This document shows positions 44,610 to 56,959 of a DNA stretch of 64,000 nucleotides, piece after piece (the stretch's first letter is position 1; each line of letters begins with the position of its first letter). The DNA lies in contig JBJHCF010000005.1 of assembly GCA_050506795.1 (NCBI GenBank), forward strand, positions 64,001 through 128,000, read 5' to 3'. The translations under genes were made by a program, and so were the position numbers. The notes below the pieces were generated by a model. It made no database searches, was not told where the DNA came from, and saw nothing but the letters and a program-made list of their open reading frames with translations. This stretch comes from Opitutia bacterium (lineage in GTDB: Bacteria > Verrucomicrobiota > Verrucomicrobiia > Opitutales > T3Sed10-336).

Positions 44610-45710
44610 ATGAGCGATATGAAAATCAAACCCGCCGATGCCTGTGAATTCGATCTCCTTGCGCTGGGAGAAGTGATGCTGCGCCTCGATCCCGGCGAGG
44701 GTCGTGTGCGTACCGCGCGCTCGTTTCGCGCCTGGGAAGGCGGCGGCGAGTACAACGTGGCCCGCGGCTTGCGCCGCTGTTTCGGCCTGCGCACCAGCGT
44801 GGCGACCGCGTTCGCCGAAAACGACGTCGGGCGGCTGATCGAGGATTTTATCCTGCAGGGCGGCGTGGATACCTCGCTGATACGCTGGGTGCCGTACGAC
44901 GGCGTGGGGCGTGCCGTGCGGAACGGTTTGAACTTCACCGAGCGTGGTTTCGGTATTCGCGGGGCGGTTGGAGTGCCCGACCGCGGGCTCACGGCGGCGT
45001 CACAGCTCAAACCCGGTGATTTCGACTGGGAGGATATCTTCGGCCGGCGCGGAGTGCGCTGGTTTCACACCGGGGGGATTTACGCGGCGCTTTCCGAAAC
45101 CAGTGCCGCCGTGGTGGAGGAAGCCGTCACCGCGGCGCAAAAGCACGGTACCATCGTGTCCTACGACCTCAACTACCGCCCTTCACTGTGGAAATCCATC
45201 GGCGGTCATGCCAAGGCTCAGGAGGTGAACCGGCGTATCGCCCGAAAGGTCGATGTGATGATTGGGAACGAGGAGGACTTTACCGCCTGTCTCGGATTTG
45301 AGGTGGAAGGGGTTGACGAAAACATCTCCACTATCGAGGTCGACAAGTTCAAATCGATGATTTCCCGAGTGGTACGTGAGTTTGACAACTTCAAGGCCAC
45401 CGCGACAACTCTGCGCACCGTAAAGACCGCCACGATCAACGATTGGGGGGCGATTTGCTGGCATGACGGAAAGTTTTACGAGGCCACCCAGCGCGAGAAT
45501 CTCGAAATCCTGGATCGGGTCGGGGGAGGGGACAGCTTCGCTTCCGGCCTGATCTACGGTTTCCTCGCCACCGGTGATCCGCGGAAAGCGGTCGAATACG
45601 GGGCTGCCCACGGCGCCCTGGCCATGACCACCCCCGGTGACACCTCGATGGCCAACCTGGCCGAAGTCGAAAAAATTATGTCCGGCGGGGGGGCACGTGT
45701 GGTACGGTGA
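44610..45710 (+). CDS. kdgK: 2-dehydro-3-deoxygluconokinase (PfkB family)
   Basis: LGEVMLRL, GGGEYNVA, SYDLNYRPSLW, DRVGGGDSFASG. Confidence 0.85.
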   Translation: MSDMKIKPADACEFDLLALGEVMLRLDPGEGRVRTARSFRAWEGGGEYNVARGLRRCFGLRTSVATAFAENDVGRLIEDFILQGGVDTSLIRWVPYDGVGRAVRNGLNFTERGFGIRGAVGVPDRGLTAASQLKPGDFDWEDIFGRRGVRWFHTGGIYAALSETSAAVVEEAVTAAQKHGTIVSYDLNYRPSLWKSIGGHAKAQEVNRRIARKVDVMIGNEEDFTACLGFEVEGVDENISTIEVDKFKSMISRVVREFDNFKATATTLRTVKTATINDWGAICWHDGKFYEATQRENLEILDRVGGGDSFASGLIYGFLATGDPRKAVEYGAAHGALAMTTPGDTSMANLAEVEKIMSGGGARVVR

Positions 45711-45734
45711 TCGTTCGCTCAACCGGAAACTCGA

Positions 45735-46532
45735 ATGACTGAAGCCATGTCTCAAAATTATTTGTACGATCTCTTTTCTCTGCAAGGCAAGGTGGCCGTC
45801 GTCATCGGCGGGACCGGGGAACTCTGCGGCACCATGGCGGAGGGTCTCGCCGGCGCCGGCGCCGAGGTAATCCTGGTCGGTCGCAAGGAGGAGAAAGCCC
45901 GGAAACGGCTGGCGGCCATCGAGAAACTCGGAGGGAAAGCCACCTTTTTGGCTGCCGATATCACCACTCGCAGCAGCCTGGAGTCGTTGCTCAAGGAGTC
46001 GCTGGAAATCGCCGGAAAAGTCGACATCCTCGTCAATGGCGCCGGCGTCAATTCGGCCACCCCGTTTCTCGAGATCCCGGAGGACGAATTCGACACGATC
46101 ATCGCCACCAACCTCAAGGCGGTGTTCCTGGCCTGTCAGGTCTTCGGGAGCTACTTCGTCGATCGCGGACAACCGGCCTCGATCATCAACGTCGGTTCCA
46201 TGTCGGGAGTGACTCCTATTTCGCGGGTCTTCACCTACTCCGTGAGCAAGGCCGGGGTGCACAACCTTTCCAAAAATCTGGCCCGTGAGTGGGCGCAGAA
46301 AAACATTCGGGTGAACACGCTGGTCCCTGGATTTTTCCCGGCTGAACAGAATCGCAAGGTGCTGACTCCGGACCGGATTGATACCATCATGGGGCACACT
46401 CCCATGAATCGGTTTGGCCGGGCGGAGGAATTGATCGGAGCGACGCTTTTGCTGGCCTCCGACCGGGCCGGATCGTTCATCACCGGGGAGGAACTGCTGG
46501 TCGACGGCGGTTTCGCCGCCATGACCATCTGA
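45735..46532 (+). CDS. SDR oxidoreductase (D-mannonate oxidoreductase/UxuB-like or gluconate 5-dehydrogenase-like)
   Basis: [31 protein letters not shown]; next to uxaC. Confidence 0.8.
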
Positions 46533-46553
46533 GCCCAACCCGATTGCGTACCC

Positions 46554-47972
46554 ATGTCCGTTTTCATCACCGACGACTTCCTCCTGCACAGCGCCTCCGC
46601 CCGCGAACTCTATCACGATTACGCCGCCCGGGAGCCGATTTTCGATTACCATTGCCACCTTCCGCCGGCGGAGATCGCCGAAAACAAGTCGTTTCCCAAT
46701 CTGGGGAATATTTGGCTGGCCGGCGACCACTACAAATGGCGGGCCATGCGCGCGAACGGGGTCGAGGAGCGTTTCTGCGGGGGTGACGCCGGCGACAAGG
46801 AGAAGTTTCTCGCTTACGCCCGGACGGTGCCCCGGACCGTTCGGAATCCTTTGTATCACTGGACTCATCTCGAGTTGAAGCGGTTCTTCGGGATCGACAC
46901 CCTGCTCAATGAAGAGACGGCGGAGGAGATTTGGGAGGAAACCCGGGAGAAGCTGGCGCGGCCCGAAATGTCTGTGCACGGTATTCTGACCAATCACCGG
47001 GTATCCGTCATATGCACCACCGACGATCCGGTGGATACGCTGGAGTTTCATCGCCAAATCGGCGAAAACGGTACCCTGGCCACCCGGGTGTACCCGACGT
47101 TTCGGCCGGACAAGGCGCTCTCGGTCGATCAACCCGAGGCTTTCAATGCGTGGATCGACCGTCTGGCGGAAGTCAGCGGGGTGGATTGCGCCAGCCTGGA
47201 TTCTTTTTTGGAGGCCCTGAAGCAGCGTCACGACTTCTTTCACGAAATGGGCTGCCGGTTGTCCGATCACGGCATGACGCATTGTGACGACGCCGACTGC
47301 ACCGATGCCGAGGCGCGGGTGGCGTTTGACAAGGCGCGCGCCGGAAAAGCGGTTCCGGCAGATGAGGCGGTCAAATTCCGCAGTTACATGATGGTTTTTT
47401 TCGGTCGTCTCGACGCCGACCGCGGGTGGACCAAGCAGCTTCACCTCGGCGCCATGAGGAACAACAACACCCGCCGTTTCCGGGAACTCGGTCCCGACAC
47501 CGGATTCGACTCGATTGGAGACTACCCCCAGGCCCGCGGTTTGGCCGGGTACCTGGACCGCCTGGACCGTACCGGCCAGTTGCCCAAGACGATACTCTAC
47601 AACAACAACCCCACCGATAATTACATTTTCGCGACCATGATCGGCAACTTTCAGGACGGCAGCGTTCCCGGAAAGATGCAGTTCGGATCCGGCTGGTGGC
47701 ATCTTGATCAAATCGAGGGAATGGAATGGCAACTCAACGCGTTGTCCAATCTCGGTCTCCTCAGTCGCTTTGTCGGGATGCTTACCGATTCGCGCAGCTT
47801 TCTGTCGTATCCCCGTCACGAATACTTTCGCCGCATTCTCTGCAACCTGATCGGTCGTGACGTGGAGAACGGCGAGTTGCCCCGCGACATGAAACTGCTT
47901 GGCGGCATCGTGCGCGATATCTGCTTCCGCAACGCCGAGGCGTATTTCGGGCTCGAGACCGGAACGGTCTAA
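46554..47972 (+). CDS. uxaC: Uronate isomerase
   Basis: DYHCHL, DHYKWRAMR, NPLYHWTHLEL, CTTDDP, GMLTDSRSFLSYPRHEYFRR. Confidence 0.97.
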   Translation: MSVFITDDFLLHSASARELYHDYAAREPIFDYHCHLPPAEIAENKSFPNLGNIWLAGDHYKWRAMRANGVEERFCGGDAGDKEKFLAYARTVPRTVRNPLYHWTHLELKRFFGIDTLLNEETAEEIWEETREKLARPEMSVHGILTNHRVSVICTTDDPVDTLEFHRQIGENGTLATRVYPTFRPDKALSVDQPEAFNAWIDRLAEVSGVDCASLDSFLEALKQRHDFFHEMGCRLSDHGMTHCDDADCTDAEARVAFDKARAGKAVPADEAVKFRSYMMVFFGRLDADRGWTKQLHLGAMRNNNTRRFRELGPDTGFDSIGDYPQARGLAGYLDRLDRTGQLPKTILYNNNPTDNYIFATMIGNFQDGSVPGKMQFGSGWWHLDQIEGMEWQLNALSNLGLLSRFVGMLTDSRSFLSYPRHEYFRRILCNLIGRDVENGELPRDMKLLGGIVRDICFRNAEAYFGLETGTV

Positions 47973-49774: not shown

Positions 49775-49891
49775 GGCGTGTTTTTTTCCACCATGAACGG
49801 TGCAAGGCACTCCGCCAGGGGCTAAGCAATGAGAAGGATGGGTCAAAACGGCGCCAAACCGGTGACGTATGACTGTTTTGGAGGAAATTTT

Positions 49892-50359
49892 ATGAAACGA
49901 CTCACACTGCTTTTCTGCTCACTGCTGACGGCTTCCGTAATCCCGCTCTCCGCAGCCCACCAGTATAATCCGCTGGGGGCCGGGGTGATTCTGGGCGAAC
50001 CGACCGGGTTGACGGCCAAATATTGGGTGAGCGACACCAATGCCTTTGATGCGGCCCTGGGGTGGTCCTTTGAGGGAAGGACCTCGTTCCACCTGCACGG
50101 CAGTTATCTTTTTCATGATTTTGAGATGGTGGAGGTCGCCAAAGGGAGCCTCCCGCTTTATTTCGGTGTTGGTGGCCGGCTGAAGGCCCGCAGCGGCAAG
50201 AGCGACCGGCTGGGGGTTCGGGTTCCGGTCGGCGTTGCCTATCATTTCGAGGATGTCCCGGTCGAGGCCTTTGCCGAGATAGTTCCCATCATCGACATTG
50301 TCCCCAGCTCGCGCGCCAGCCTCAACGCGGCGATCGGTGCGCGCTTCTACTTTGAGTAA
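49892..50359 (+). CDS. Small outer-membrane beta-barrel protein (DUF3996-like)
   Basis: GGAGG RBS, signal peptide, GVILGEPTGLTAK, GVRVPVG, GARFYF. Confidence 0.75.
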   Translation: MKRLTLLFCSLLTASVIPLSAAHQYNPLGAGVILGEPTGLTAKYWVSDTNAFDAALGWSFEGRTSFHLHGSYLFHDFEMVEVAKGSLPLYFGVGGRLKARSGKSDRLGVRVPVGVAYHFEDVPVEAFAEIVPIIDIVPSSRASLNAAIGARFYFE

Positions 50360-51137: not shown

Positions 51138-51259
51138 ACCCGGCGTGTTAATGGTGACCGTTCGTCGATCCAGTTCAAGCACTGTCCGACCAAAGGGGGC
51201 ATTGGAGTGCAAGGAAAAAGCGATTGCATGATAAGAAAAATCCGGTAATGATCATAGGG

Positions 51260-51272
51260 TATCAACGGCTTG
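51260..51272 (+). promoter_or_regulatory. IHF-binding-site consensus match in an AT-rich divergent intergenic region
   Basis: TATCAACGGCTTG matches WATCAANNNNTTR. Confidence 0.35.
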
Positions 51273-51649
51273 GTTTTAAGGGATTTACCTATGTTCGAAC
51301 TTATCTTATTGAGAGTCAGGATTTTAACGTAATTCACAGGGGTTTCGCTTTATGGTGGAAAACTGTAAGTAATTGGAATACAAGACCTTTGATTTTTTGA
51401 CTTTTCGACATGATTAATTTTCCCGTTGATTAAACTAGATTCATTGAGGTGGGAGTAATGCTTTAATTTCGTAGAGAATCTTGATTCAAACCTCTAAAAT
51501 AAATTCCGGTGTGTGACGAAGCCCGCCGGGGCAAACCAAGTTCATGTGCGTCGCCTGTCCAACGAAGCCTTGCGTTTCCAAAACCAGATGCCTGCGAGTT
51601 CCAGATGACGATTTAGCTGGACACAAATGATTCAAAAGAAGCTACGAGA

Positions 51650-53344
51650 ATGGGTGTTCCTACCAAGAATATTACCGCACCGATAGAAAGCCAACGCCTG
51701 AGCTACCTCAATAAAACAGGCCGGAAAATCATAGCTTATTATGATAGTCTGGCGGGGACGGAGATCGAGCCGTACATCGTGGTTGTGCTTCCCAAGTACG
51801 GGGAAACAAAGAAAAACAACCTCCAACTCGCTTTCACGATGGCAGCTAACGGGCTGCATGTCTTGCGTTTTGACCACACCTGCCATGTTGGCGAGAGTGA
51901 GGGAGCCATGACAGATTTTACGCTCCCAGGTGCGGTTGATGACGTTCTAACCACCTTGGACTTTGTTCAGGAGCACTTTGGGGTCAAAAAGGTCGTTTTG
52001 GTTTCGAGCAGCCTTTCATCAAGGTCTGCGCTTCGGGCGGCGGCGTTGGATTCCCGAATCAGGAAACTCGTCTGTCTGGTTGGTGTTTTTAATGTCAGCT
52101 ACACGCTTCGCGAAGTTTATCGCGAGGATCTCGTGGCAAATCATATCGACGGTAAAACCTGGGGAGTCGCTGACATACTCGGTCATGAAATCGATTTCGA
52201 TAATTTCCTTCGTGAGCTGGTCAAGGCGAACATGCACGATCTCCAGGGAACGATCTATGATTTGAGTCGAACGTCGGCTTCCGCAGCGTATTTTGGAGCT
52301 GAGAATGACCCCTGGGTGGACCGTGAAGAGGTTGCGCTTGCGCTCGGGCGCAGGAGGGATTCGGAGGTCCACCTTGTTGCCGGAGCGATGCACGAGGTTC
52401 GTGAAAATCAGGAAAAAGGAGTCGAGGTTTACGATGACATCGTCCGGGCCTGCTTCCTGGAAGGGCGACCTGAGGACAGCGTAATTCTTCGTCCGGAAAA
52501 AAAGCCGTTGCTTCGTCAGAACAAAATTGAGCGGGATTATTTGCGAAAAGCCAAGGAAAAGGATTTCGAGCCCGAAACGGACTTCTGGGGATCCTATCTG
52601 GAGAAGTACAGTTTGTTGGACCGTGTTGACGACTACCGCCGGTATCTTGATACCGTCGGCGATTTGCTCGGGCGGATTGACGGTGGAGATATTGTGTTGG
52701 ATGCAGGTTGCGGGAACGGCTTGTTTGGAGTCTGGTTGATCCGGGACGTGTTGTCCAGAAATGGACAGGGGGCAGGTTATCAGGGGCCGCCGGTTTACGT
52801 TGGGCTGGACCTGACATGCAAGGGTTTGAGTGACGCAATGATGCAGCATTGCGACGCGCAAAAACCCTCCAATGGCCATGGTGCCCTCTTGCCGGACTTT
52901 ATTTACGGTTGCATGGACCTGGATGTTTTTTCGGATCCGGAAAATAAAGGCGAATTAGCCGTGGAGTTTGGTGAAAACACCTTTGATAAGGTCTGCTGCA
53001 GCCTGCTGATTTCATACCTGAAAGAGCCCCAGCGGCTGATCGACAAGTTGTACAAGATCCTCAAACCCGGAGGTACGCTTGTTGTTTCAAGCATGAAGCC
53101 ATTTTGCGACATGTCGATGATCTACCGTGACTTTATGGACCAAAAGGTCAGCGCCGGGGAACTGGAGATGGGCCGCGATTTGCTGCGAGCTGCCGGAAAG
53201 ATCAAGATTAAGGAGGAGCTTGGCTATTATGTGTTTTTCTCGGGGGAAGAGATGAGCGCTATGGCGGATGACGCTGGATTCCGAAGGATTGAGTTTCGCG
53301 AGTGCTTTGGCGGACAGGCTCATGTTGTGAAAGCGGAGAAGTGA
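51650..53344 (+). CDS. LuxD-like acyl-ACP thioesterase fused to a class I SAM-dependent methyltransferase
   Basis: N-domain NGLHVLRFDHTCHVGESEG, SSSLSSR, VGVFN, AENDPWVDREEV, GAMHEVREN; C-domain VLDAGCGNG, FDKVCCSLLISYL, LKPGGTLVV. Confidence 0.82.
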   Translation: MGVPTKNITAPIESQRLSYLNKTGRKIIAYYDSLAGTEIEPYIVVVLPKYGETKKNNLQLAFTMAANGLHVLRFDHTCHVGESEGAMTDFTLPGAVDDVLTTLDFVQEHFGVKKVVLVSSSLSSRSALRAAALDSRIRKLVCLVGVFNVSYTLREVYREDLVANHIDGKTWGVADILGHEIDFDNFLRELVKANMHDLQGTIYDLSRTSASAAYFGAENDPWVDREEVALALGRRRDSEVHLVAGAMHEVRENQEKGVEVYDDIVRACFLEGRPEDSVILRPEKKPLLRQNKIERDYLRKAKEKDFEPETDFWGSYLEKYSLLDRVDDYRRYLDTVGDLLGRIDGGDIVLDAGCGNGLFGVWLIRDVLSRNGQGAGYQGPPVYVGLDLTCKGLSDAMMQHCDAQKPSNGHGALLPDFIYGCMDLDVFSDPENKGELAVEFGENTFDKVCCSLLISYLKEPQRLIDKLYKILKPGGTLVVSSMKPFCDMSMIYRDFMDQKVSAGELEMGRDLLRAAGKIKIKEELGYYVFFSGEEMSAMADDAGFRRIEFRECFGGQAHVVKAEK

Positions 53345-55527
53345 CATTTTATTGTGCAGTCAGTTCGTTCATAAACGCCGTCACAAGCATTGTCCTGGCG
53401 ATCTCGGTTTACCGATATCGCAAGAGCACAATGGTTGAGCTTTCCTTTGTTTGCTTCGCTCTTTCGGTTGGATTGTGGTCCGTATTCTATTTTTTCTGGC
53501 AGATTGCCGGTTCCGAAGAAGATGCAATTTCGCTGACTCGTATCCTCATGGGTGCGGCAGCGTTCATCCCGATTAGTTTTTTTTATTTTACGACGACCTT
53601 CAGGGGGTATTCGCACAAGTACCAGATGGTCTCAGGCGTTGTGATCTCCTTTTGCTTTGCGATTGTTTCGATTTCCACCTCCGGAATTGTCGCGGGCGTT
53701 TCCCCTAAGATGGGGGTTGAATATTGGCCCGATGCGGGTCCATTGTTGAAATATTATTTGCTTTTTTGGTTCTATTACGTGGTTGGAAGCATAGTGGTCT
53801 TATCTCGGGATTTTCGGCGACAACACGAGAATAAAAAGAATCAGATTAAGTATATTCTCATTGGAACGGTCATTGGTTTTACCGGTGGTGCGACAAATTT
53901 TTTCCTATGGTATGATATTCCTATTCCACCGATCGGGAACGTGCTGGTTTCGTTCTATGTGTTTGGCGTTTCATATGCGACAGCCAGATACAGATTGATG
54001 GATGTTGACCTCGCCTTGGTTAAAGGCGCGGCATTTTTTTTCGTGGTTGCTCTTGTTGCCCTTGCATATCCAGTCTCCTGGATCCTGATCGATTCCGGTG
54101 GAGCAGGTGGAAGGCAAGCGGAAATTTTTGTAAAGCAATATCTCGTTTCTTTTGTCCTGGTCGGCTTTTTGTTTTTAGCCGCGCCACGCTTCATGAAGCG
54201 TTTGAATGCTTTCGTTGAAACACAACTAAAACAATCGCAGTACAATTATAGAAATCAGTTGCGTTGGCTGATTCGGAAAATCGATCAGTTGGAGCGAAGC
54301 GAGGAGATATTCTCGAAGACGGCCACTTTTCTGTGCGACCAATTGAGCGTCGAAGCGGTCGCGGTGTTTATCCGTGAAAAGACCGCCATGAGTTTTGTGT
54401 TGCGAGCAAGAGCCGGAGCGAAGGATTTTGAGATCAGGGCGTTGGACGAGCAGGACAGTCTCGTGGAGGTTATGAATAAAGTCGGAGGAGTGATATGTGT
54501 AGAGGAACTCCGTCAGCATATCGATGCCGGTGGGGACGGCAGTCTGCCGATTGAATCCGGTGTGAGAAAATTGAGCGAGTTGGGAGTGGAGATACTGATT
54601 CCTCTGCTGACTGAGGAGCGGCTGCACGGCTTCTTTTTGCTTGGAAAACGATGGCCGAGGAATTACTACTCGGAACCGGATTTGGCTTTATTTGAAGTCT
54701 TGGGTATGGAAATTGCAGCTAGCATCAGGATTCGTGAGCTGGAGCGCCGGTCGGCTGAGAATGAGAAGCTCATGGCGTTGGGCACGATGGCTGCCGGATT
54801 GGCCCATGAGCTCAGAAATCCGATGGTTTCCGTCCAGACTTATATTTCTATGCTTGAGGATGAATGTGCCGGGCCGGTGTTGATCAAGGATACGAAGATG
54901 CTTGGAATCATTCAACGGGACCTTCGGCGTATGAACGAAATCGTTCACAACGTAGGCGCGTTTGCTCAGAACGTGCCTCTTGAGATGAATCCTGTCGATC
55001 TGCGTTCGGTAGTTGATACGGCAATCGAAGTTGAGGCTGAAAACATACAACGCAGGGATGTTCGGACCACGGTTCATTGTCAGGTCACACACCCGGTAAG
55101 AGGCGACTTTAATCAGTTGGTGCAGGTTTTTCAGAATTTGATCATGAACGCGACCCAGGCATTCCAGGAGAATCACGAGAAATTGATCACGATTACGGCG
55201 GTCGAAAAACTGGAGAATAATGGTAGGGGAGTGGTGTTGGTGACCGTTGAGGACACCGGTCCCGGGATAGATATGGAGATTATAAGAAATCTTTTTGAGC
55301 CTTTTGTGACCACCAAAGCAACGGGTTCGGTCTCGGAGCATAGAGGGATGGGGCTTGGTCTTGCTATCGTGAAGCAAATAATTGAGTCGCATCAGGGAAT
55401 TGTTGAGGCGTTCAACCGCCCGAGCGGCGGAAGTTTATTTCGGATTTTATTGCCATTAATGCAGGGTGTCCAGGTTCACGGTCAGAACGGAAATGAGAGA
55501 TTATCAATCCACCAACAGCATGATTGA
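53341..55527 (+). CDS. Membrane sensor histidine kinase (HisKA_7TM-like + GAF + HisKA/HATPase)
   Basis: About 9 hydrophobic segments, KNQIKYILIG, YATARYRLMDV, GAF (IPL..EERLHGFFLLGKR...YSEPDL), AHELRNP, NLIMNA, DTGPGI, GMGLGL; GTGA overlap with the upstream stop. Confidence 0.9.
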   Translation: MTFYCAVSSFINAVTSIVLAISVYRYRKSTMVELSFVCFALSVGLWSVFYFFWQIAGSEEDAISLTRILMGAAAFIPISFFYFTTTFRGYSHKYQMVSGVVISFCFAIVSISTSGIVAGVSPKMGVEYWPDAGPLLKYYLLFWFYYVVGSIVVLSRDFRRQHENKKNQIKYILIGTVIGFTGGATNFFLWYDIPIPPIGNVLVSFYVFGVSYATARYRLMDVDLALVKGAAFFFVVALVALAYPVSWILIDSGGAGGRQAEIFVKQYLVSFVLVGFLFLAAPRFMKRLNAFVETQLKQSQYNYRNQLRWLIRKIDQLERSEEIFSKTATFLCDQLSVEAVAVFIREKTAMSFVLRARAGAKDFEIRALDEQDSLVEVMNKVGGVICVEELRQHIDAGGDGSLPIESGVRKLSELGVEILIPLLTEERLHGFFLLGKRWPRNYYSEPDLALFEVLGMEIAASIRIRELERRSAENEKLMALGTMAAGLAHELRNPMVSVQTYISMLEDECAGPVLIKDTKMLGIIQRDLRRMNEIVHNVGAFAQNVPLEMNPVDLRSVVDTAIEVEAENIQRRDVRTTVHCQVTHPVRGDFNQLVQVFQNLIMNATQAFQENHEKLITITAVEKLENNGRGVVLVTVEDTGPGIDMEIIRNLFEPFVTTKATGSVSEHRGMGLGLAIVKQIIESHQGIVEAFNRPSGGSLFRILLPLMQGVQVHGQNGNERLSIHQQHD

Positions 55528-56959
55528 CCATAGATCAAATGCGGTCGGATTCCGATCGGGGTCTGTCGAGCGGGCGTTGCGCCGTTTTGGAGCGGCCTTC
55601 GCCCATATAGGCAGTCTGGATCGATTCACAGACGCCTTGGAAAAGGCCATGAGTGAAGCGATGTTTCTGAGGGAAGCAGTGATTCATCTGGAGGCAGAAG
55701 ATCAATCCGGCACGGCCAGGGATTGTTTCGTGGCAGGGTCATTGGTGCTTCCACTCCAGGGGAAGCAAGCGGTACGTGGAACCGTGGAGGTGCGCAGTCC
55801 CGGCGCGCTGCGCCCGTACGGTCCCGATGAACTGCGGTTGCTGTCTTCCCTGACTTCGTTTTGCGCCTCATTGGTCGAACATGCGTTCAAACACGCGGAC
55901 CAAGGCCGGGATCTGGCTATTCTGCGGTATATTTTTGATCAGCTCCCGGTCCCGGTGCTGGCCTGTACCGAGAGCGGTCGGATCCTGATCCTGAACTCGC
56001 GCGGCGCTTCCTGCCTTCGGCTTTCAAAATCCGAACCGGGGCACCTCGGGTCGGAGATTCATTCCAGGATGCTTGCGGCCTGCGAGAAGAACGGAGCTTC
56101 CAGTTTCGGCTTTTTTGTCGCTCTACCGGGCCAATTGATGAAGGCAACGGTGTCGCCCTGTCCGGCACAGGGCACGATGGAGCGGGTCTATTGCATGACG
56201 ATCATGGACCTGACGCAGGAAAGGGAGCGTCTTCGCCAAGGGCTTTTCCGAGAAGCCTTTCGTTGTCGTTGGCTGAATAAACCGCTGACCCGGATCACTT
56301 TACGCAACACAGAGAATCCTATGGCCCTTATCGAAATGCTACCCCTTTTGCGGCGTCGCCTTGGCAGTGACGACCGGGCGGGTCCGTGGGAGGAGGATGC
56401 CTTGGCCCTGGCATTTCCCGAGATCACGAAGTGGCAGGCTTTGACGGAACTCCGCGAGTGGCTGCGGACTGACCAAAGTGGCGAAATGACCGTTGGGGTA
56501 GCCATGATGGAAGCGGGATCTGATCATCCGGAAGAGATCGGTGAAGCAGAGGGCGAGGAAATTTTCCGATTGGAGGAGATGCTTCGCCCGGCGATTCTCC
56601 TGCATGACGAGAGTCAGGAGGTGAATGACTCCCTGGAATACGCCTTGCGAGGGGATTATCAGGTGGTCAAGAGCCATTGCTCCGCCGCAACCCTCGGTAT
56701 CCTCGCCGACCGGCGATTCGATGGGTTAATTATCGAACGGTATCCGCGTGACGGTGGCAGCGGGGTCGATTTGGCTCGACGTGCCGCGGAGATGAATCCT
56801 GACATCCAGGTTTTTTTCACCGGGGCTTTTGCGGAAGGAACCTGCAGTGACCTGAAGGACTTCGCGCGACCTCCGGTCGCGGTACCCAAGCCGTTCCGGG
56901 TGGATCGGCTCCTGGCACTCGTTCGCGAGTGCCTGGATGCTCGGGGTTCTGTTTCCTGA
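55520..56959 (+). CDS. Multidomain signalling protein: GAF-like, PAS, degenerate GGDEF-like, atypical receiver
   Basis: PYGPDELRLL, IFDQLPVPVLACTESGRILILN, SDDRAGPWEEDALALAFPE, ILLHDES...FDGLIIE...SGVDLAR...PKPF; ATGATTGA overlap with the kinase. Confidence 0.7.
   Translation: MIDHRSNAVGFRSGSVERALRRFGAAFAHIGSLDRFTDALEKAMSEAMFLREAVIHLEAEDQSGTARDCFVAGSLVLPLQGKQAVRGTVEVRSPGALRPYGPDELRLLSSLTSFCASLVEHAFKHADQGRDLAILRYIFDQLPVPVLACTESGRILILNSRGASCLRLSKSEPGHLGSEIHSRMLAACEKNGASSFGFFVALPGQLMKATVSPCPAQGTMERVYCMTIMDLTQERERLRQGLFREAFRCRWLNKPLTRITLRNTENPMALIEMLPLLRRRLGSDDRAGPWEEDALALAFPEITKWQALTELREWLRTDQSGEMTVGVAMMEAGSDHPEEIGEAEGEEIFRLEEMLRPAILLHDESQEVNDSLEYALRGDYQVVKSHCSAATLGILADRRFDGLIIERYPRDGGSGVDLARRAAEMNPDIQVFFTGAFAEGTCSDLKDFARPPVAVPKPFRVDRLLALVRECLDARGSVS

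What the first reader, a model, noticed from the sequence alone, without database searches (positions are those of the whole stretch)
51650..53344. LuxD-type thioesterase with an intact triad fused to a SAM methyltransferase, outside any lux operon
The N-terminal ~275 aa track Vibrio LuxD motif by motif, as I recall that sequence: RFDHTCHVGESEG vs RYDSLHHVGLSSG; nucleophile elbow SSSLSSR vs ASSLSAR; AENDPWVDREEV vs ANNDDWVKQEEV; GAMHEVREN vs GSSHDLGEN. Ser, Asp and His all appear retained. The C-terminal domain has SAM motif I (VLDAGCGNG) and LKPGG. A single-chain acyl-ACP to methyl-ester enzyme would also be of biotechnological interest.
Basis: partly seen in the sequence, partly recalled or inferred. 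Interest (0 to 1): 0.75.

Follow-up and report, generated by a model that had tools for sequence, protein, structure and literature searches.

The report
Lipid methyl-ester enzyme paired with membrane kinase
A gene fusing a LuxD-like acyl-chain hydrolase to a methyltransferase is real, and it nearly always sits directly in front of a membrane sensor kinase gene in five bacterial phyla, so it looks like part of an undescribed lipid-based signalling module and not a stray metabolic enzyme.

Summary
ORF 51650-53344 (+) encodes 564 aa. The N-terminal half is closer to Vibrio LuxD than to any other characterised hydrolase: Pfam 80 bits versus 26 for Hydrolase_4, and 1THT is the best PDB hit by both sequence and fold. 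Ser121/Asp220/His248 are invariant in 40 aligned relatives. The C-terminal half is a class I SAM methyltransferase. The genome has no LuxC or LuxE.

The gene overlaps by 4 nt (GTGA) a 7TM-GAF histidine kinase gene, which is followed by a PAS/GGDEF-like/receiver gene. A kinase of this type directly follows the enzyme gene in 58 of 61 assessable loci from Verrucomicrobiota, Planctomycetia, Omnitrophota, Elusimicrobia and Nitrospirota. Longer relatives carry PilZ (24 of 32 scanned), REC-PAS (10) or START-like lipid-binding domains (5) in front of the same core. Some loci add HD-GYP response regulators or dedicated ketoacyl synthases.

Best reading (about 0.4): it makes a fatty-acid methyl-ester-type lipid that the kinase perceives, analogous to Ralstonia Phc or Xanthomonas DSF signalling. 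Main rival (about 0.3): the enzyme is a regulated output of the kinase and c-di-GMP. The chemistry is inferred. Homology to PhcB could not be tested. Seven literature searches found no description of this family.

The parts
51213..51649 (+). 437-nt AT-rich (40% GC) intergenic region upstream of the operon; presumed promoter and leader
   Evidence: GC 0.40 against 0.58 for the window. One weak sigma-70-like match at 51472-51500, but promoter-like sites are not above shuffles. No Rfam match.
51650..53344 (+). LuxD-like acyl hydrolase / class I SAM methyltransferase fusion gene (564 aa, P0001)
51683..52459 (+). LuxD-like alpha/beta-hydrolase domain (about aa 12-270). Ser121 is codon 52010-52012, Asp220 is 52307-52309, His248 is 52391-52393. 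The LuxD-type loop R73-x-D75...H79-x-G81-x-S83-x-G85 lies at 51866-51904.
   Evidence: Pfam Acyl_transf_2 80.3 bits. 1THT alignment. Foldseek 1THT E 8.5e-19. Invariant columns in A1. Codons.
52499..53341 (+). Methyltransferase domain with a conserved N-terminal helical cap (about aa 284-564). SAM motif I D351-A-G353-C-G355 lies at 52700-52714.
   Evidence: Pfam Methyltransf_23/31/11/12/25. Invariants D351, G353, G355, F312, W313, Y316. Profile against PDB, best hit LahSB 6UAK E 1.7e-10.
53341..55527 (+). 7TM (HisKA_7TM)-GAF-HisKA-HATPase sensor histidine kinase. The GTG start overlaps the enzyme's TGA stop (GTGA).
   Evidence: Pfam. Resembles NCBIfam PrsK, E 2.6e-37, below cut-off. The start is inferred from relatives whose proteins begin at residue 14 of ORF 53302 and from the sequence. 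Seven to eight hydrophobic segments in the first ~290 aa.
55520..56959 (+). PAS / GGDEF-like (no GGDEF motif) / receiver-domain protein. The start is uncertain (55466, 55493 or 55520). ATG 55520 overlaps the kinase stop at 55525-55527.
   Evidence: No Pfam hit. NCBIfam CpdR-type receiver, aa 376-491 of ORF 55466, E 5.6e-7. AF2 pLDDT 75.5. Foldseek best hits are PAS-GGDEF-EAL proteins 5XGB and DosP, plus receiver domains. The phospho-site column is Glu here and in 17 of 28 homologues, Asp in 10.

Best explanation
The gene encodes the synthase half of a conserved synthase/sensor-kinase signalling module.

Proposed mechanism:
1. The LuxD-like domain takes an acyl chain from a thioester, most likely acyl-ACP, onto Ser121 and releases the free acid.
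2. The rigidly attached methyltransferase domain converts the carboxylate to a methyl ester using SAM. The product is a hydrophobic, membrane-permeant fatty-acid methyl-ester-type molecule.
3. The co-translated 7TM-GAF histidine kinase, which has no sizeable extracytoplasmic domain, perceives that lipid or its effect within the membrane.
4. The kinase signals onward through the PAS/GGDEF-like/receiver protein. In other lineages the same role falls to HD-GYP response regulators and c-di-GMP, which feed back on the enzyme through fused PilZ or REC domains.

In logic this resembles Ralstonia PhcB-PhcS (methyl 3-hydroxy-fatty-acid signal) and Xanthomonas RpfF-RpfC-RpfG (DSF).

Shown here: the domain identities, the conserved triad and SAM motif, the operon structure, the conservation of the enzyme-kinase pair across phyla, and the signalling-domain fusions.

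Inferred: the substrate, the methyl-ester product, that the kinase senses the product, and any cell-to-cell role.

The weaker claim, that enzyme and kinase work together in one pathway, I hold at about 0.85.
For: Domain identity:
- The N-domain is closest to LuxD by HMM, by PDB sequence search and by fold.
- The triad is invariant in 40 of 40 aligned relatives.
- A pTM of 0.88 for the two-domain model indicates a fixed inter-domain arrangement.
- The methyltransferase profile's best solved relative is LahSB, a carboxylate O-methyltransferase (PMC11285071, passages read).

Operon in the window:
- GTGA start/stop overlap between enzyme and kinase.
- ATG 55520, the inferred start of the third gene, overlaps the kinase stop.

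Conservation of the pair:
- Among 71 family loci from species-representative genomes, a full-length homologue of this kinase, including its 7TM part, directly follows the enzyme gene on the same strand in 55.
- It is present but split in 2 more, and present behind a frameshift in 1. That makes 58 of 61 assessable loci.
- 3 loci carry a soluble kinase instead. 9 end at a contig edge and 1 is incomplete.
- The 55 split as Verrucomicrobiota 34, Planctomycetia 1, Omnitrophota 3, Elusimicrobia 2, Nitrospirota 15.
- Between the window and Nitrospira kinases the 7TM segment is the best-conserved part: 33-36% identity over residues 19-262, against about 25% over the rest.

Signalling and lipid context in relatives:
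- HD-GYP-type (HD_5) proteins lie downstream in three loci: REC-HD_5 in L087 and L095, GAF-HD_5 after two stand-alone receivers in L069. L087 also has an NtrC-type regulator.
- KAS-FabG-KAS-FAD oxidase in L069, KAS...KAS-FAD oxidase in L072, and FabD in L095 lie upstream of the enzyme.
- START-like lipid-binding domains are fused to the core in 5 of 32 long relatives.

Distribution is patchy and accessory: 15 of 401 Verrucomicrobiota genomes and 49 of 301 Nitrospirota genomes.
Against: - No product, substrate or ligand is shown for any family member.
- The enzyme core is fused to PilZ in 24 of 32 long relatives and to REC-PAS in 10 of 32. The ~1400-aa REC-bearing Nitrospira paralogues are followed by a soluble kinase. 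This is what one expects of a regulated output enzyme. To my knowledge (recalled) it is not seen in known autoinducer synthases.
- The kinase also has a cytoplasmic GAF domain that could be the real sensor.
- The window's cassette has no DNA-binding regulator. The receiver of the third protein carries Glu at the phospho-acceptor position.
- Homology to PhcB was not tested, because no PhcB sequence could be obtained. No PhcB-named protein appeared.
- The methyltransferase matches are generic class I hits and do not fix the acceptor atom.
Confidence: 0.4

Rival explanations
1. The enzyme is an effector output, not a signal maker. The 7TM-GAF kinase senses some membrane or environmental cue. Through phosphotransfer, c-di-GMP or a partner protein it switches on a lipid-modifying enzyme that remodels membrane or envelope lipids, for example by releasing and methyl-esterifying acyl chains. 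The kinase does not sense the product.
For: PilZ is fused to the core in 24 of 32 long relatives and REC-PAS in 10 of 32. A crude regex finds the RxxxR...[DN]xSxxG pattern in 17 of the 24 PilZ-bearing relatives. The ~1400-aa REC-PAS-PilZ-enzyme paralogues in three Nitrospira genomes are followed by a soluble kinase, i.e. a two-component pair whose output domain is this enzyme. HD-GYP and GGDEF genes lie in several loci. START-like fusions occur.
Against: In Opitutales, Planctomycetia, and some Omnitrophota and Elusimicrobia, the enzyme has no regulatory domain, yet it keeps the tight enzyme-first coupling to the 7TM kinase. The 7TM part, the likely ligand site, is the most conserved part of the kinase across phyla. 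That fits a shared ligand better than a variable environmental cue. This rival is not exclusive of the best explanation, since feedback would combine the two.
Confidence: 0.3
2. The pair is a protein-directed modification system. The methyltransferase methylates carboxylates on the kinase or another signalling protein, and the hydrolase domain removes the methyl esters. This would be an adaptation device like CheR/CheB.
For: An esterase-type fold and a methyltransferase lie in one chain next to a sensor kinase. The closest solved methyltransferase by profile, LahSB, methylates peptide carboxylates (PMC11285071).
Against: The hydrolase is specifically LuxD-like (acyl-ACP thioesterase) and not CheB-like. 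No CheR-type model matched. Fatty-acid synthesis genes and START-like lipid-binding fusions point to a lipid substrate.
Confidence: 0.07
3. A BioC/BioH-like masking device. The methyltransferase methyl-esterifies a carboxy-acyl-ACP starter so that ketoacyl synthases can elongate it. The hydrolase domain later removes the methyl ester or releases the chain, giving a dicarboxylic or otherwise unusual lipid.
For: Weak BioC hit, TIGR02072 E 1.4e-4. KAS, ketoreductase and FabD genes lie next to relatives in Planctomycetia and Omnitrophota.
Against: The BioC score (21.8 bits against a cut-off of 185) is no better than other generic methyltransferase hits. The window and the Opitutales loci have no KAS genes beside the cassette. 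This reading does not explain the kinase pairing.
Confidence: 0.06
4. A stand-alone metabolic fatty-acid methyl-ester enzyme, whose neighbours are coincidental.
For: The domain chemistry alone.
Against: The kinase follows in 58 of 61 assessable loci in five phyla, usually with overlapping start and stop codons. Signalling-domain fusions are recurrent.
Confidence: 0.04

Closest known systems
LuxD, myristoyl-ACP thioesterase/acyltransferase of the lux operon (Vibrio harveyi, PDB 1THT; Pfam PF02273)
   Same: It is the best match of the N-domain by HMM, by sequence and by fold. The Ser/Asp/His positions and the R-x-D...H-x-G-x-S-x-G loop are shared.
   Different: Identity is only about 20-22% by Foldseek. 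The score is far below the LuxD equivalog cut-off, 78 against 420 bits. The genome has no LuxC or LuxE. The domain is fused to a methyltransferase and paired with a kinase.
Ralstonia solanacearum Phc quorum sensing (phcBSRQ): PhcB methyltransferase makes methyl 3-hydroxymyristate or methyl 3-hydroxypalmitate, and PhcS is the sensor kinase
   Same: A SAM methyltransferase-containing synthase gene is followed by a sensor histidine kinase gene and receiver-domain proteins without DNA-binding domains. The predicted product class is a fatty-acid methyl ester. (For PMC8578825 and PMC10576176 I saw only the abstract starts in search listings; for PMC11298618 and PMC6989110 I read passages.) Opitutales relatives also carry a REC-HisKA-HATPase protein, the architecture I recall for PhcR.
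   Different: Homology to PhcB and PhcS is untested, because no sequence was obtained (one search found nothing). The papers describe only a methyltransferase domain as known in PhcB (PMC6989110, passages read), not a LuxD-like domain. The phyla differ. The PilZ, REC and START fusions and the c-di-GMP links are not part of Phc as I know it (recalled).
Xanthomonas DSF system RpfF-RpfC-RpfG
   Same: A synthase that acts on acyl-ACP with thioesterase activity, a multi-pass membrane sensor kinase, and a REC-HD-GYP response regulator that degrades c-di-GMP. REC-HD_5 genes lie downstream of the kinase in L087 and L095.
   Different: RpfF has a crotonase fold, not an alpha/beta hydrolase fold, and there is no methylation step. 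The window's own cassette has no HD-GYP gene.
PrsK, the PEP-CTERM/exosortase-associated histidine kinase (TIGR02916)
   Same: The downstream kinase aligns over residues 148-718 at E 2.6e-37 and has the same multi-TM plus GAF plus kinase layout. NtrC-type regulators, as for PrsR (recalled), follow in L087.
   Different: The score of 128.8 bits is below the cut-off of 300. No exosortase genes were seen in the stretch examined (42-64 kb).
LahSB, lanthipeptide C-terminal carboxyl O-methyltransferase (PDB 6UAK)
   Same: It is the best solved relative of the methyltransferase-domain profile, E 1.7e-10, including the N-terminal W-x-x-Y helix. It makes methyl esters (PMC11285071, passages read).
   Different: The alignment consists of two short stretches. 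The substrate is a peptide. Similarity is at the level of generic class I methyltransferases.

Membership tests
Pfam Acyl_transf_2 (PF02273, LuxD-like) | Score above the gathering threshold of the family HMM | tested here: met
   80.3 bits against a cut-off of 20.3, residues 60-267.
LuxD proper (NCBIfam NF052253 equivalog; lux fatty acid reductase transferase subunit) | Score above the equivalog cut-off | tested here: not met
   78.1 bits against a cut-off of 420; PRK13604 78.6 against 529.
LuxD proper | Ser/Asp/His catalytic triad at the LuxD positions | tested here: met
   S121/D220/H248 align to 1THT positions 114/211/241 and are invariant in 40 sequences. That these are the LuxD triad residues is recalled.
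LuxD proper | Genomic association with luxC and luxE (fatty acid reductase) and luciferase | tested here: not met
   No PF05893 or PF04443 match in the 97.8%-complete genome. The neighbours are a kinase and a receiver protein.
LuxD proper | Acyl-ACP (C14) thioesterase or acyl-transfer activity | not testable with these tools
   Needs an enzyme assay.
Class I SAM-dependent methyltransferase | Rossmann-type fold with glycine-rich motif I, and matching family HMMs | tested here: met
   Methyltransf_23, _31, _11, _12 and _25 are all above cut-off. D351/G353/G355 are invariant. The AF2 model shows alternating strands and helices.
PhcB-type autoinducer synthase (Ralstonia) | Sequence homology to PhcB | not tested
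   No PhcB sequence was obtained. The primer scan found nothing. No PhcB- or Ralstonia-named protein appeared, or in the plasmid search.
PhcB-type autoinducer synthase (Ralstonia) | Synthase gene followed by a sensor kinase gene and receiver proteins in one operon | tested here: met
   The arrangement is conserved in 58 of 61 assessable loci.
PhcB-type autoinducer synthase (Ralstonia) | Produces a diffusible 3-hydroxy fatty-acid methyl ester that the kinase senses | not testable with these tools
   Needs chemistry and genetics.
PrsK (TIGR02916) histidine kinase, for the downstream gene | Score above the equivalog cut-off | tested here: not met
   128.8 bits against a cut-off of 300.
Diguanylate cyclase (GGDEF), for the third gene | GG[DE]EF active-site motif and a Pfam GGDEF match | tested here: not met
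   No Pfam match. The corresponding loop reads GPWEED here and GPYDA in the family consensus. Only the fold resembles PAS-GGDEF proteins.

The most novel reading that the evidence does not exclude
The LuxD-methyltransferase fusion and its 7TM-GAF kinase form a previously undescribed, phylum-spanning lipid autoinducer system. It would be a fatty-acid methyl-ester-type signal with its membrane receptor, wired into c-di-GMP through PilZ and HD-GYP partners. It would operate in Verrucomicrobiota, Nitrospirota, Omnitrophota, Elusimicrobia and Planctomycetia, phyla for which I recall no well-characterised signal/receptor pair; I ran no search on this point.
Probability: 0.35. Interest if true: 0.85.

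Novelty: new variant of a known kind. Interest (0 to 1): 0.62.

Why it matters
If the reading is right, this is a new chemical-communication or lipid-signalling module in environmentally important but poorly studied bacteria. They include nitrite-oxidising Nitrospira, where 49 of 301 sampled genomes carry it, often twice.

It offers a defined two-gene handle, enzyme plus receptor, that can be tested in E. coli and in at least one genome whose record carries no MAG label (IMCC26134).

It also links c-di-GMP (PilZ, HD-GYP) to production of a lipid methyl ester. That connection did not turn up in the papers searched.

Tried and rejected
1. PhcB homology. A scan of genome contigs with a Ralstonia-specific PCR primer recalled from memory found no match, so no Ralstonia genome handle and no PhcB sequence were obtained. 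A tblastn of P0001 against plasmids found nothing. A methyltransferase-domain-only search gave 47 hits, mostly short proteins on contigs of about 1-4 kb and so probably fragments of the two-domain family, none with a PhcB or Ralstonia name. An Atlas search of the methyltransferase part gave only generic methyltransferase clusters.

2. Apparent natural fusion of enzyme and kinase in L090 (one 1641-aa ORF). Rejected: the conserved C-terminal motif of the enzyme lies in the +1 frame, so this is a frameshift or sequencing error, not Rosetta-stone evidence.

3. Complex prediction of the enzyme with residues 140-497 of the third protein: no support (score 0.00). This is not evidence either way.

4. 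RNA evidence: no RNA holder was listed.

5. Rfam and promoter/terminator scans of the locus gave nothing above chance.

6. First attempt at search for related loci with the 40-row alignment failed for lack of conserved stretches. It was repeated with 12 rows.

7. Horizontal transfer. The enzyme (GC 0.519) and kinase (0.479) are below the window mean (0.58), but the third gene (0.584) is not. This is suggestive only. The membrane-protein composition of the kinase may contribute.

8. Literature searches found no paper describing a LuxD-methyltransferase fusion, its PilZ-fused forms or its kinase pairing. For the two PilZ census preprints (10.1101/2020.02.11.943704, 10.1101/814665) I read only the passages returned for the terms methyltransferase, Nitrospira and hydrolase, and they do not mention this architecture. 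bioRxiv supplements could not be seen and may list it.
Full report
**1. What is there**

ORF 51650-53344 on the + strand encodes 564 aa. Pfam places residues 60-267 in Acyl_transf_2, the LuxD family, at E 2e-22 and 80.3 bits. The generic Hydrolase_4 model reaches only 26.4 bits, below its cut-off. Five class I methyltransferase models cover residues 330-545.

A search of all PDB sequences puts the V. harveyi myristoyl-ACP thioesterase LuxD (1THT) first at E 3.7e-20; the next hit is at 9.2e-6. An AlphaFold2 model built on a 40-row alignment is confident (pLDDT 90.5, pTM 0.88). Foldseek again ranks 1THT first (E 8.5e-19, TM 0.84 normalised to the target).

Counting along the printed 1THT alignment, Ser121, Asp220 and His248 fall on chain positions 114, 211 and 241. 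I recall these as the LuxD triad. All three are invariant in the 40 sequences, as are the LuxD-like loop R73/D75/G81/S83/G85 and SAM motif I D351/G353/G355.

Its recalled LuxD strings match the chain printed except for one letter.

The protein is not a LuxD orthologue. The NCBIfam LuxD equivalog scores 78 bits against a cut-off of 420. The 97.8%-complete genome has no LuxC or LuxE match and only this one PF02273 gene.

**2. The immediate context**

- The enzyme's TGA stop (53342-53344) overlaps a GTG (53341-53343) at the position where homologous kinases start.
- That gene (to 55527) encodes a HisKA_7TM-GAF-HisKA-HATPase kinase. It has 7-8 hydrophobic segments in the first ~290 residues. It resembles the PEP-CTERM-associated kinase PrsK without reaching its cut-off.
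- Its stop is overlapped by the ATG at 55520 of a third gene.
- The third product has no Pfam hit. It folds (pLDDT 75.5; the first ~120 residues are poorly predicted) into a PAS domain, a GGDEF-like domain and a receiver domain. The best structural matches are PAS-GGDEF-EAL proteins and receiver domains.
- The GGDEF motif is absent: the loop reads GPWEED here and GPYDA in the family consensus. The phospho-acceptor column is Glu in the window and in 17 of 28 homologues, Asp in 10 and Asn in 1.
- Upstream lie a 437-nt, 40%-GC spacer and a divergently oriented HAD hydrolase gene. Downstream is ispE.

**3. The family and its partners**

The two-domain architecture is common in metagenomes. One search gave 462 hits, and the 120 listed all carry both domain types, with only generic names. 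Among 50%-identity representatives there were 1179 hits at E<=1e-3 and 169 at E<=1e-30.

Among species-representative genomes the family is patchy:
- 15 of 401 Verrucomicrobiota, counting the window's genome; 13 of the other 14 are in the window's order.
- 49 of 301 Nitrospirota, several with two copies.

A scan of named genome records returned 71 full-length family loci (L031-L101) from Opitutales and other Verrucomicrobiota, one Planctomycetia MAG, Omnitrophota, Elusimicrobia and Nitrospirota. It also returned 8 loci that match the methyltransferase part only.

In those 71 loci I asked whether a homologue of the window's kinase, covering both its 7TM region and its catalytic core, starts within -150 to +400 nt of the enzyme's stop on the same strand:
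- Yes in 55.
- Kinase present but broken into two ORFs in 2 (L048, L051).
- Enzyme and kinase read as one ORF in 1 (L090). This is a frameshift, because the enzyme's conserved C-terminus is in the +1 frame.
- A soluble kinase follows instead in 3 Nitrospirota loci.
- The contig ends too soon in 9, and the enzyme ORF is incomplete in 1.

That makes 58 of 61 assessable loci. A separately fetched set of 14 Verrucomicrobiota loci shows the kinase in 14 of 14, mostly with a 4-nt overlap, and the third protein in 11 of 14.

The third gene was detected by BLAST only in Verrucomicrobiota.

**4. Fusions and further neighbours**

Of 32 longer relatives scanned:
- 24 carry PilZ domains in front of the core.
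- 10 also carry REC and nearly always PAS.
- 5 carry a START-like Polyketide_cyc domain.
- 5 have no recognisable extension.

A crude regular expression finds the RxxxR...[DN]xSxxG pattern in 17 of the 24 PilZ-bearing proteins.

Locus by locus:
- In Nitrospira, the ~750-1000-aa PilZ forms are followed by a ~1000-aa kinase with two tandem 7TM modules.
- The ~1400-aa REC-PAS-PilZ forms, checked in three genomes, are followed by a soluble ~427-aa kinase and two further genes.
- L087: an NtrC-type regulator and a REC-HD_5 (HD-GYP-type) protein lie downstream of the kinase.
- L095: a second 7TM kinase and a REC-HD_5 protein lie downstream; FabD and a GGDEF protein lie upstream.
- L069: two stand-alone receivers and a GAF-HD_5 protein lie downstream. 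Upstream, and ending at the enzyme's start, is the run ketoacyl synthase, FabG-type reductase, ketoacyl synthase, nitroreductase, FAD amine-oxidase-like enzyme.
- L072: two ketoacyl synthases and the FAD enzyme lie upstream.

In most Opitutales relatives a divergent GAF-PAS kinase and a REC-HisKA-HATPase protein flank the cassette. In the window's genome these two sit together on another contig.

**5. How it most likely works**

Shown:
- A LuxD-type catalytic apparatus is rigidly joined (pTM 0.88) to a SAM-binding methyltransferase.
- Enzyme, kinase and receiver protein form an operon with overlapping stop and start codons.
- The enzyme-kinase pair is conserved in five phyla.
- The core is recurrently fused to c-di-GMP-binding, phospho-receiver and lipid-binding domains.
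- Fatty-acid synthesis genes sit beside it in some lineages.

Inferred:
- The acyl donor is a thioester such as acyl-ACP.
- The released carboxylate is the methyl acceptor.

The second inference has weak support. The methyltransferase profile's best solved relative, LahSB (E 1.7e-10), is a carboxylate O-methyltransferase (PMC11285071, passages read). All such hits are, however, at the generic class I level.

A methyl-esterified fatty acid is the signal class of the Ralstonia Phc system, where the methyltransferase PhcB and the kinase PhcS are encoded in one operon (abstract starts of PMC8578825 and PMC10576176 seen in search listings; passages of PMC11298618 and PMC6989110 read). Multi-pass kinases without large external domains are the usual receptors of lipid-like autoinducers (recalled: PhcS, CqsS, RpfC).

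The 7TM segment is the best-conserved part of the kinase between the window and Nitrospira: 33-36% identity against about 25% elsewhere. This fits a shared ligand.

I therefore favour a synthase/receptor circuit with feedback through c-di-GMP or phosphorylation, at confidence about 0.4.

The main rival, at about 0.3, is that the enzyme is simply the regulated output of the kinase and c-di-GMP. The REC- and PilZ-fused forms speak for it. The two readings can both be true.

Three further readings are less likely, for the reasons given under the rivals:
- a CheR/CheB-like protein-modifying role;
- a BioC/BioH-like masking role;
- a context-free metabolic role.

**6. Comparison with known systems, and novelty**

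The N-domain is a member of Pfam Acyl_transf_2 but fails the tests for LuxD proper, namely the equivalog score and the lux context.

The module works like Phc and, in the loci with HD-GYP regulators, like DSF/Rpf. Membership in the PhcB family could not be tested. I obtained no PhcB sequence. No PhcB-named protein surfaced. The papers read describe only a methyltransferase domain as known in PhcB (PMC6989110).

Seven full-text searches found no description of the fusion, its PilZ forms or the kinase pairing. Supplements of the two PilZ preprints could not be seen.

Two earlier notes of this scan describe methyltransferase-plus-multi-pass-kinase pairs in Patescibacteria with the same Phc analogy. 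They concern other DNA and other enzyme architectures. I did not test them.

I rate this a new variant of a known kind: a lipid-derived signal enzyme coupled to a membrane sensor kinase.

**7. Limits**

- No substrate, product, ligand or expression data exist. No RNA run holds the locus.
- Gene starts in the related loci are from my own longest-ORF calls.
- The related genomes are mostly MAGs and phylogenetically clustered, so the locus counts overstate the number of independent observations.
- The complex prediction between the enzyme and the third protein gave no support and is not evidence either way.

Noticed in passing
G000 contig C17, locus L118 5420-8724 (- strand): Orthologues (46% and 40% identity) of the REC-HisKA-HATPase and GAF-PAS kinases that flank the cassette in most Opitutales relatives sit together, overlapping by 4 nt, on a different contig. 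In this genome the three-gene cassette is separated from its usual kinase neighbours.
   Followed up: partly
L069 429-5981 and L072 1326-5934: In a Planctomycetia MAG and an Omnitrophota MAG the enzyme gene is preceded, without a gap, by an FAD amine-oxidase/desaturase-like gene, with two ketoacyl synthases further upstream. L069 also has a FabG-type reductase and a nitroreductase. This looks like a dedicated pathway for an unusual acyl chain.
   Followed up: partly
L076 7771-10779 and equivalents in L073, L078, L080, L082, L084, L086, L089: The Nitrospira partner kinases (~1002 aa) contain two tandem copies of the 7TM module before GAF-HisKA-HATPase.
   Followed up: partly
L090 4975-9900: An apparent 1641-aa PilZ-enzyme-kinase fusion ORF in a Nitrospira MAG is caused by a frameshift near the end of the enzyme gene. 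The conserved C-terminal motif is in the +1 frame.
   Followed up: yes
L119-L121 (three Nitrospira genomes): A second, ~1400-aa REC-PAS-PilZ-enzyme paralogue per genome is followed by a soluble ~427-aa kinase and by ~480-aa and ~390-aa genes that I did not annotate.
   Followed up: partly
window 45183-47819 (- strand): An 878-aa open frame lies antisense to three well-supported genes: pfkB-type kinase, SDR and glucuronate isomerase UxaC (44610-47972, + strand). It is most likely a spurious ORF of GC-rich DNA.
   Followed up: no
window 49829-50359 (+ strand): A 176-aa ORF with no Pfam or NCBIfam match lies between a YbgC-like 4HBT thioesterase gene and the HAD hydrolase gene.
   Followed up: no
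window 56937-56959: The longest ispE (GHMP kinase) ORF starts 23 nt before the stop of the third cassette gene, so the cassette may be co-transcribed with ispE, or the ispE start lies further downstream.
   Followed up: no
control genomes: Pfam Acyl_transf_2 also matches above cut-off in Bacteroides thetaiotaomicron, another LuxD-like protein outside any lux context.
   Followed up: no
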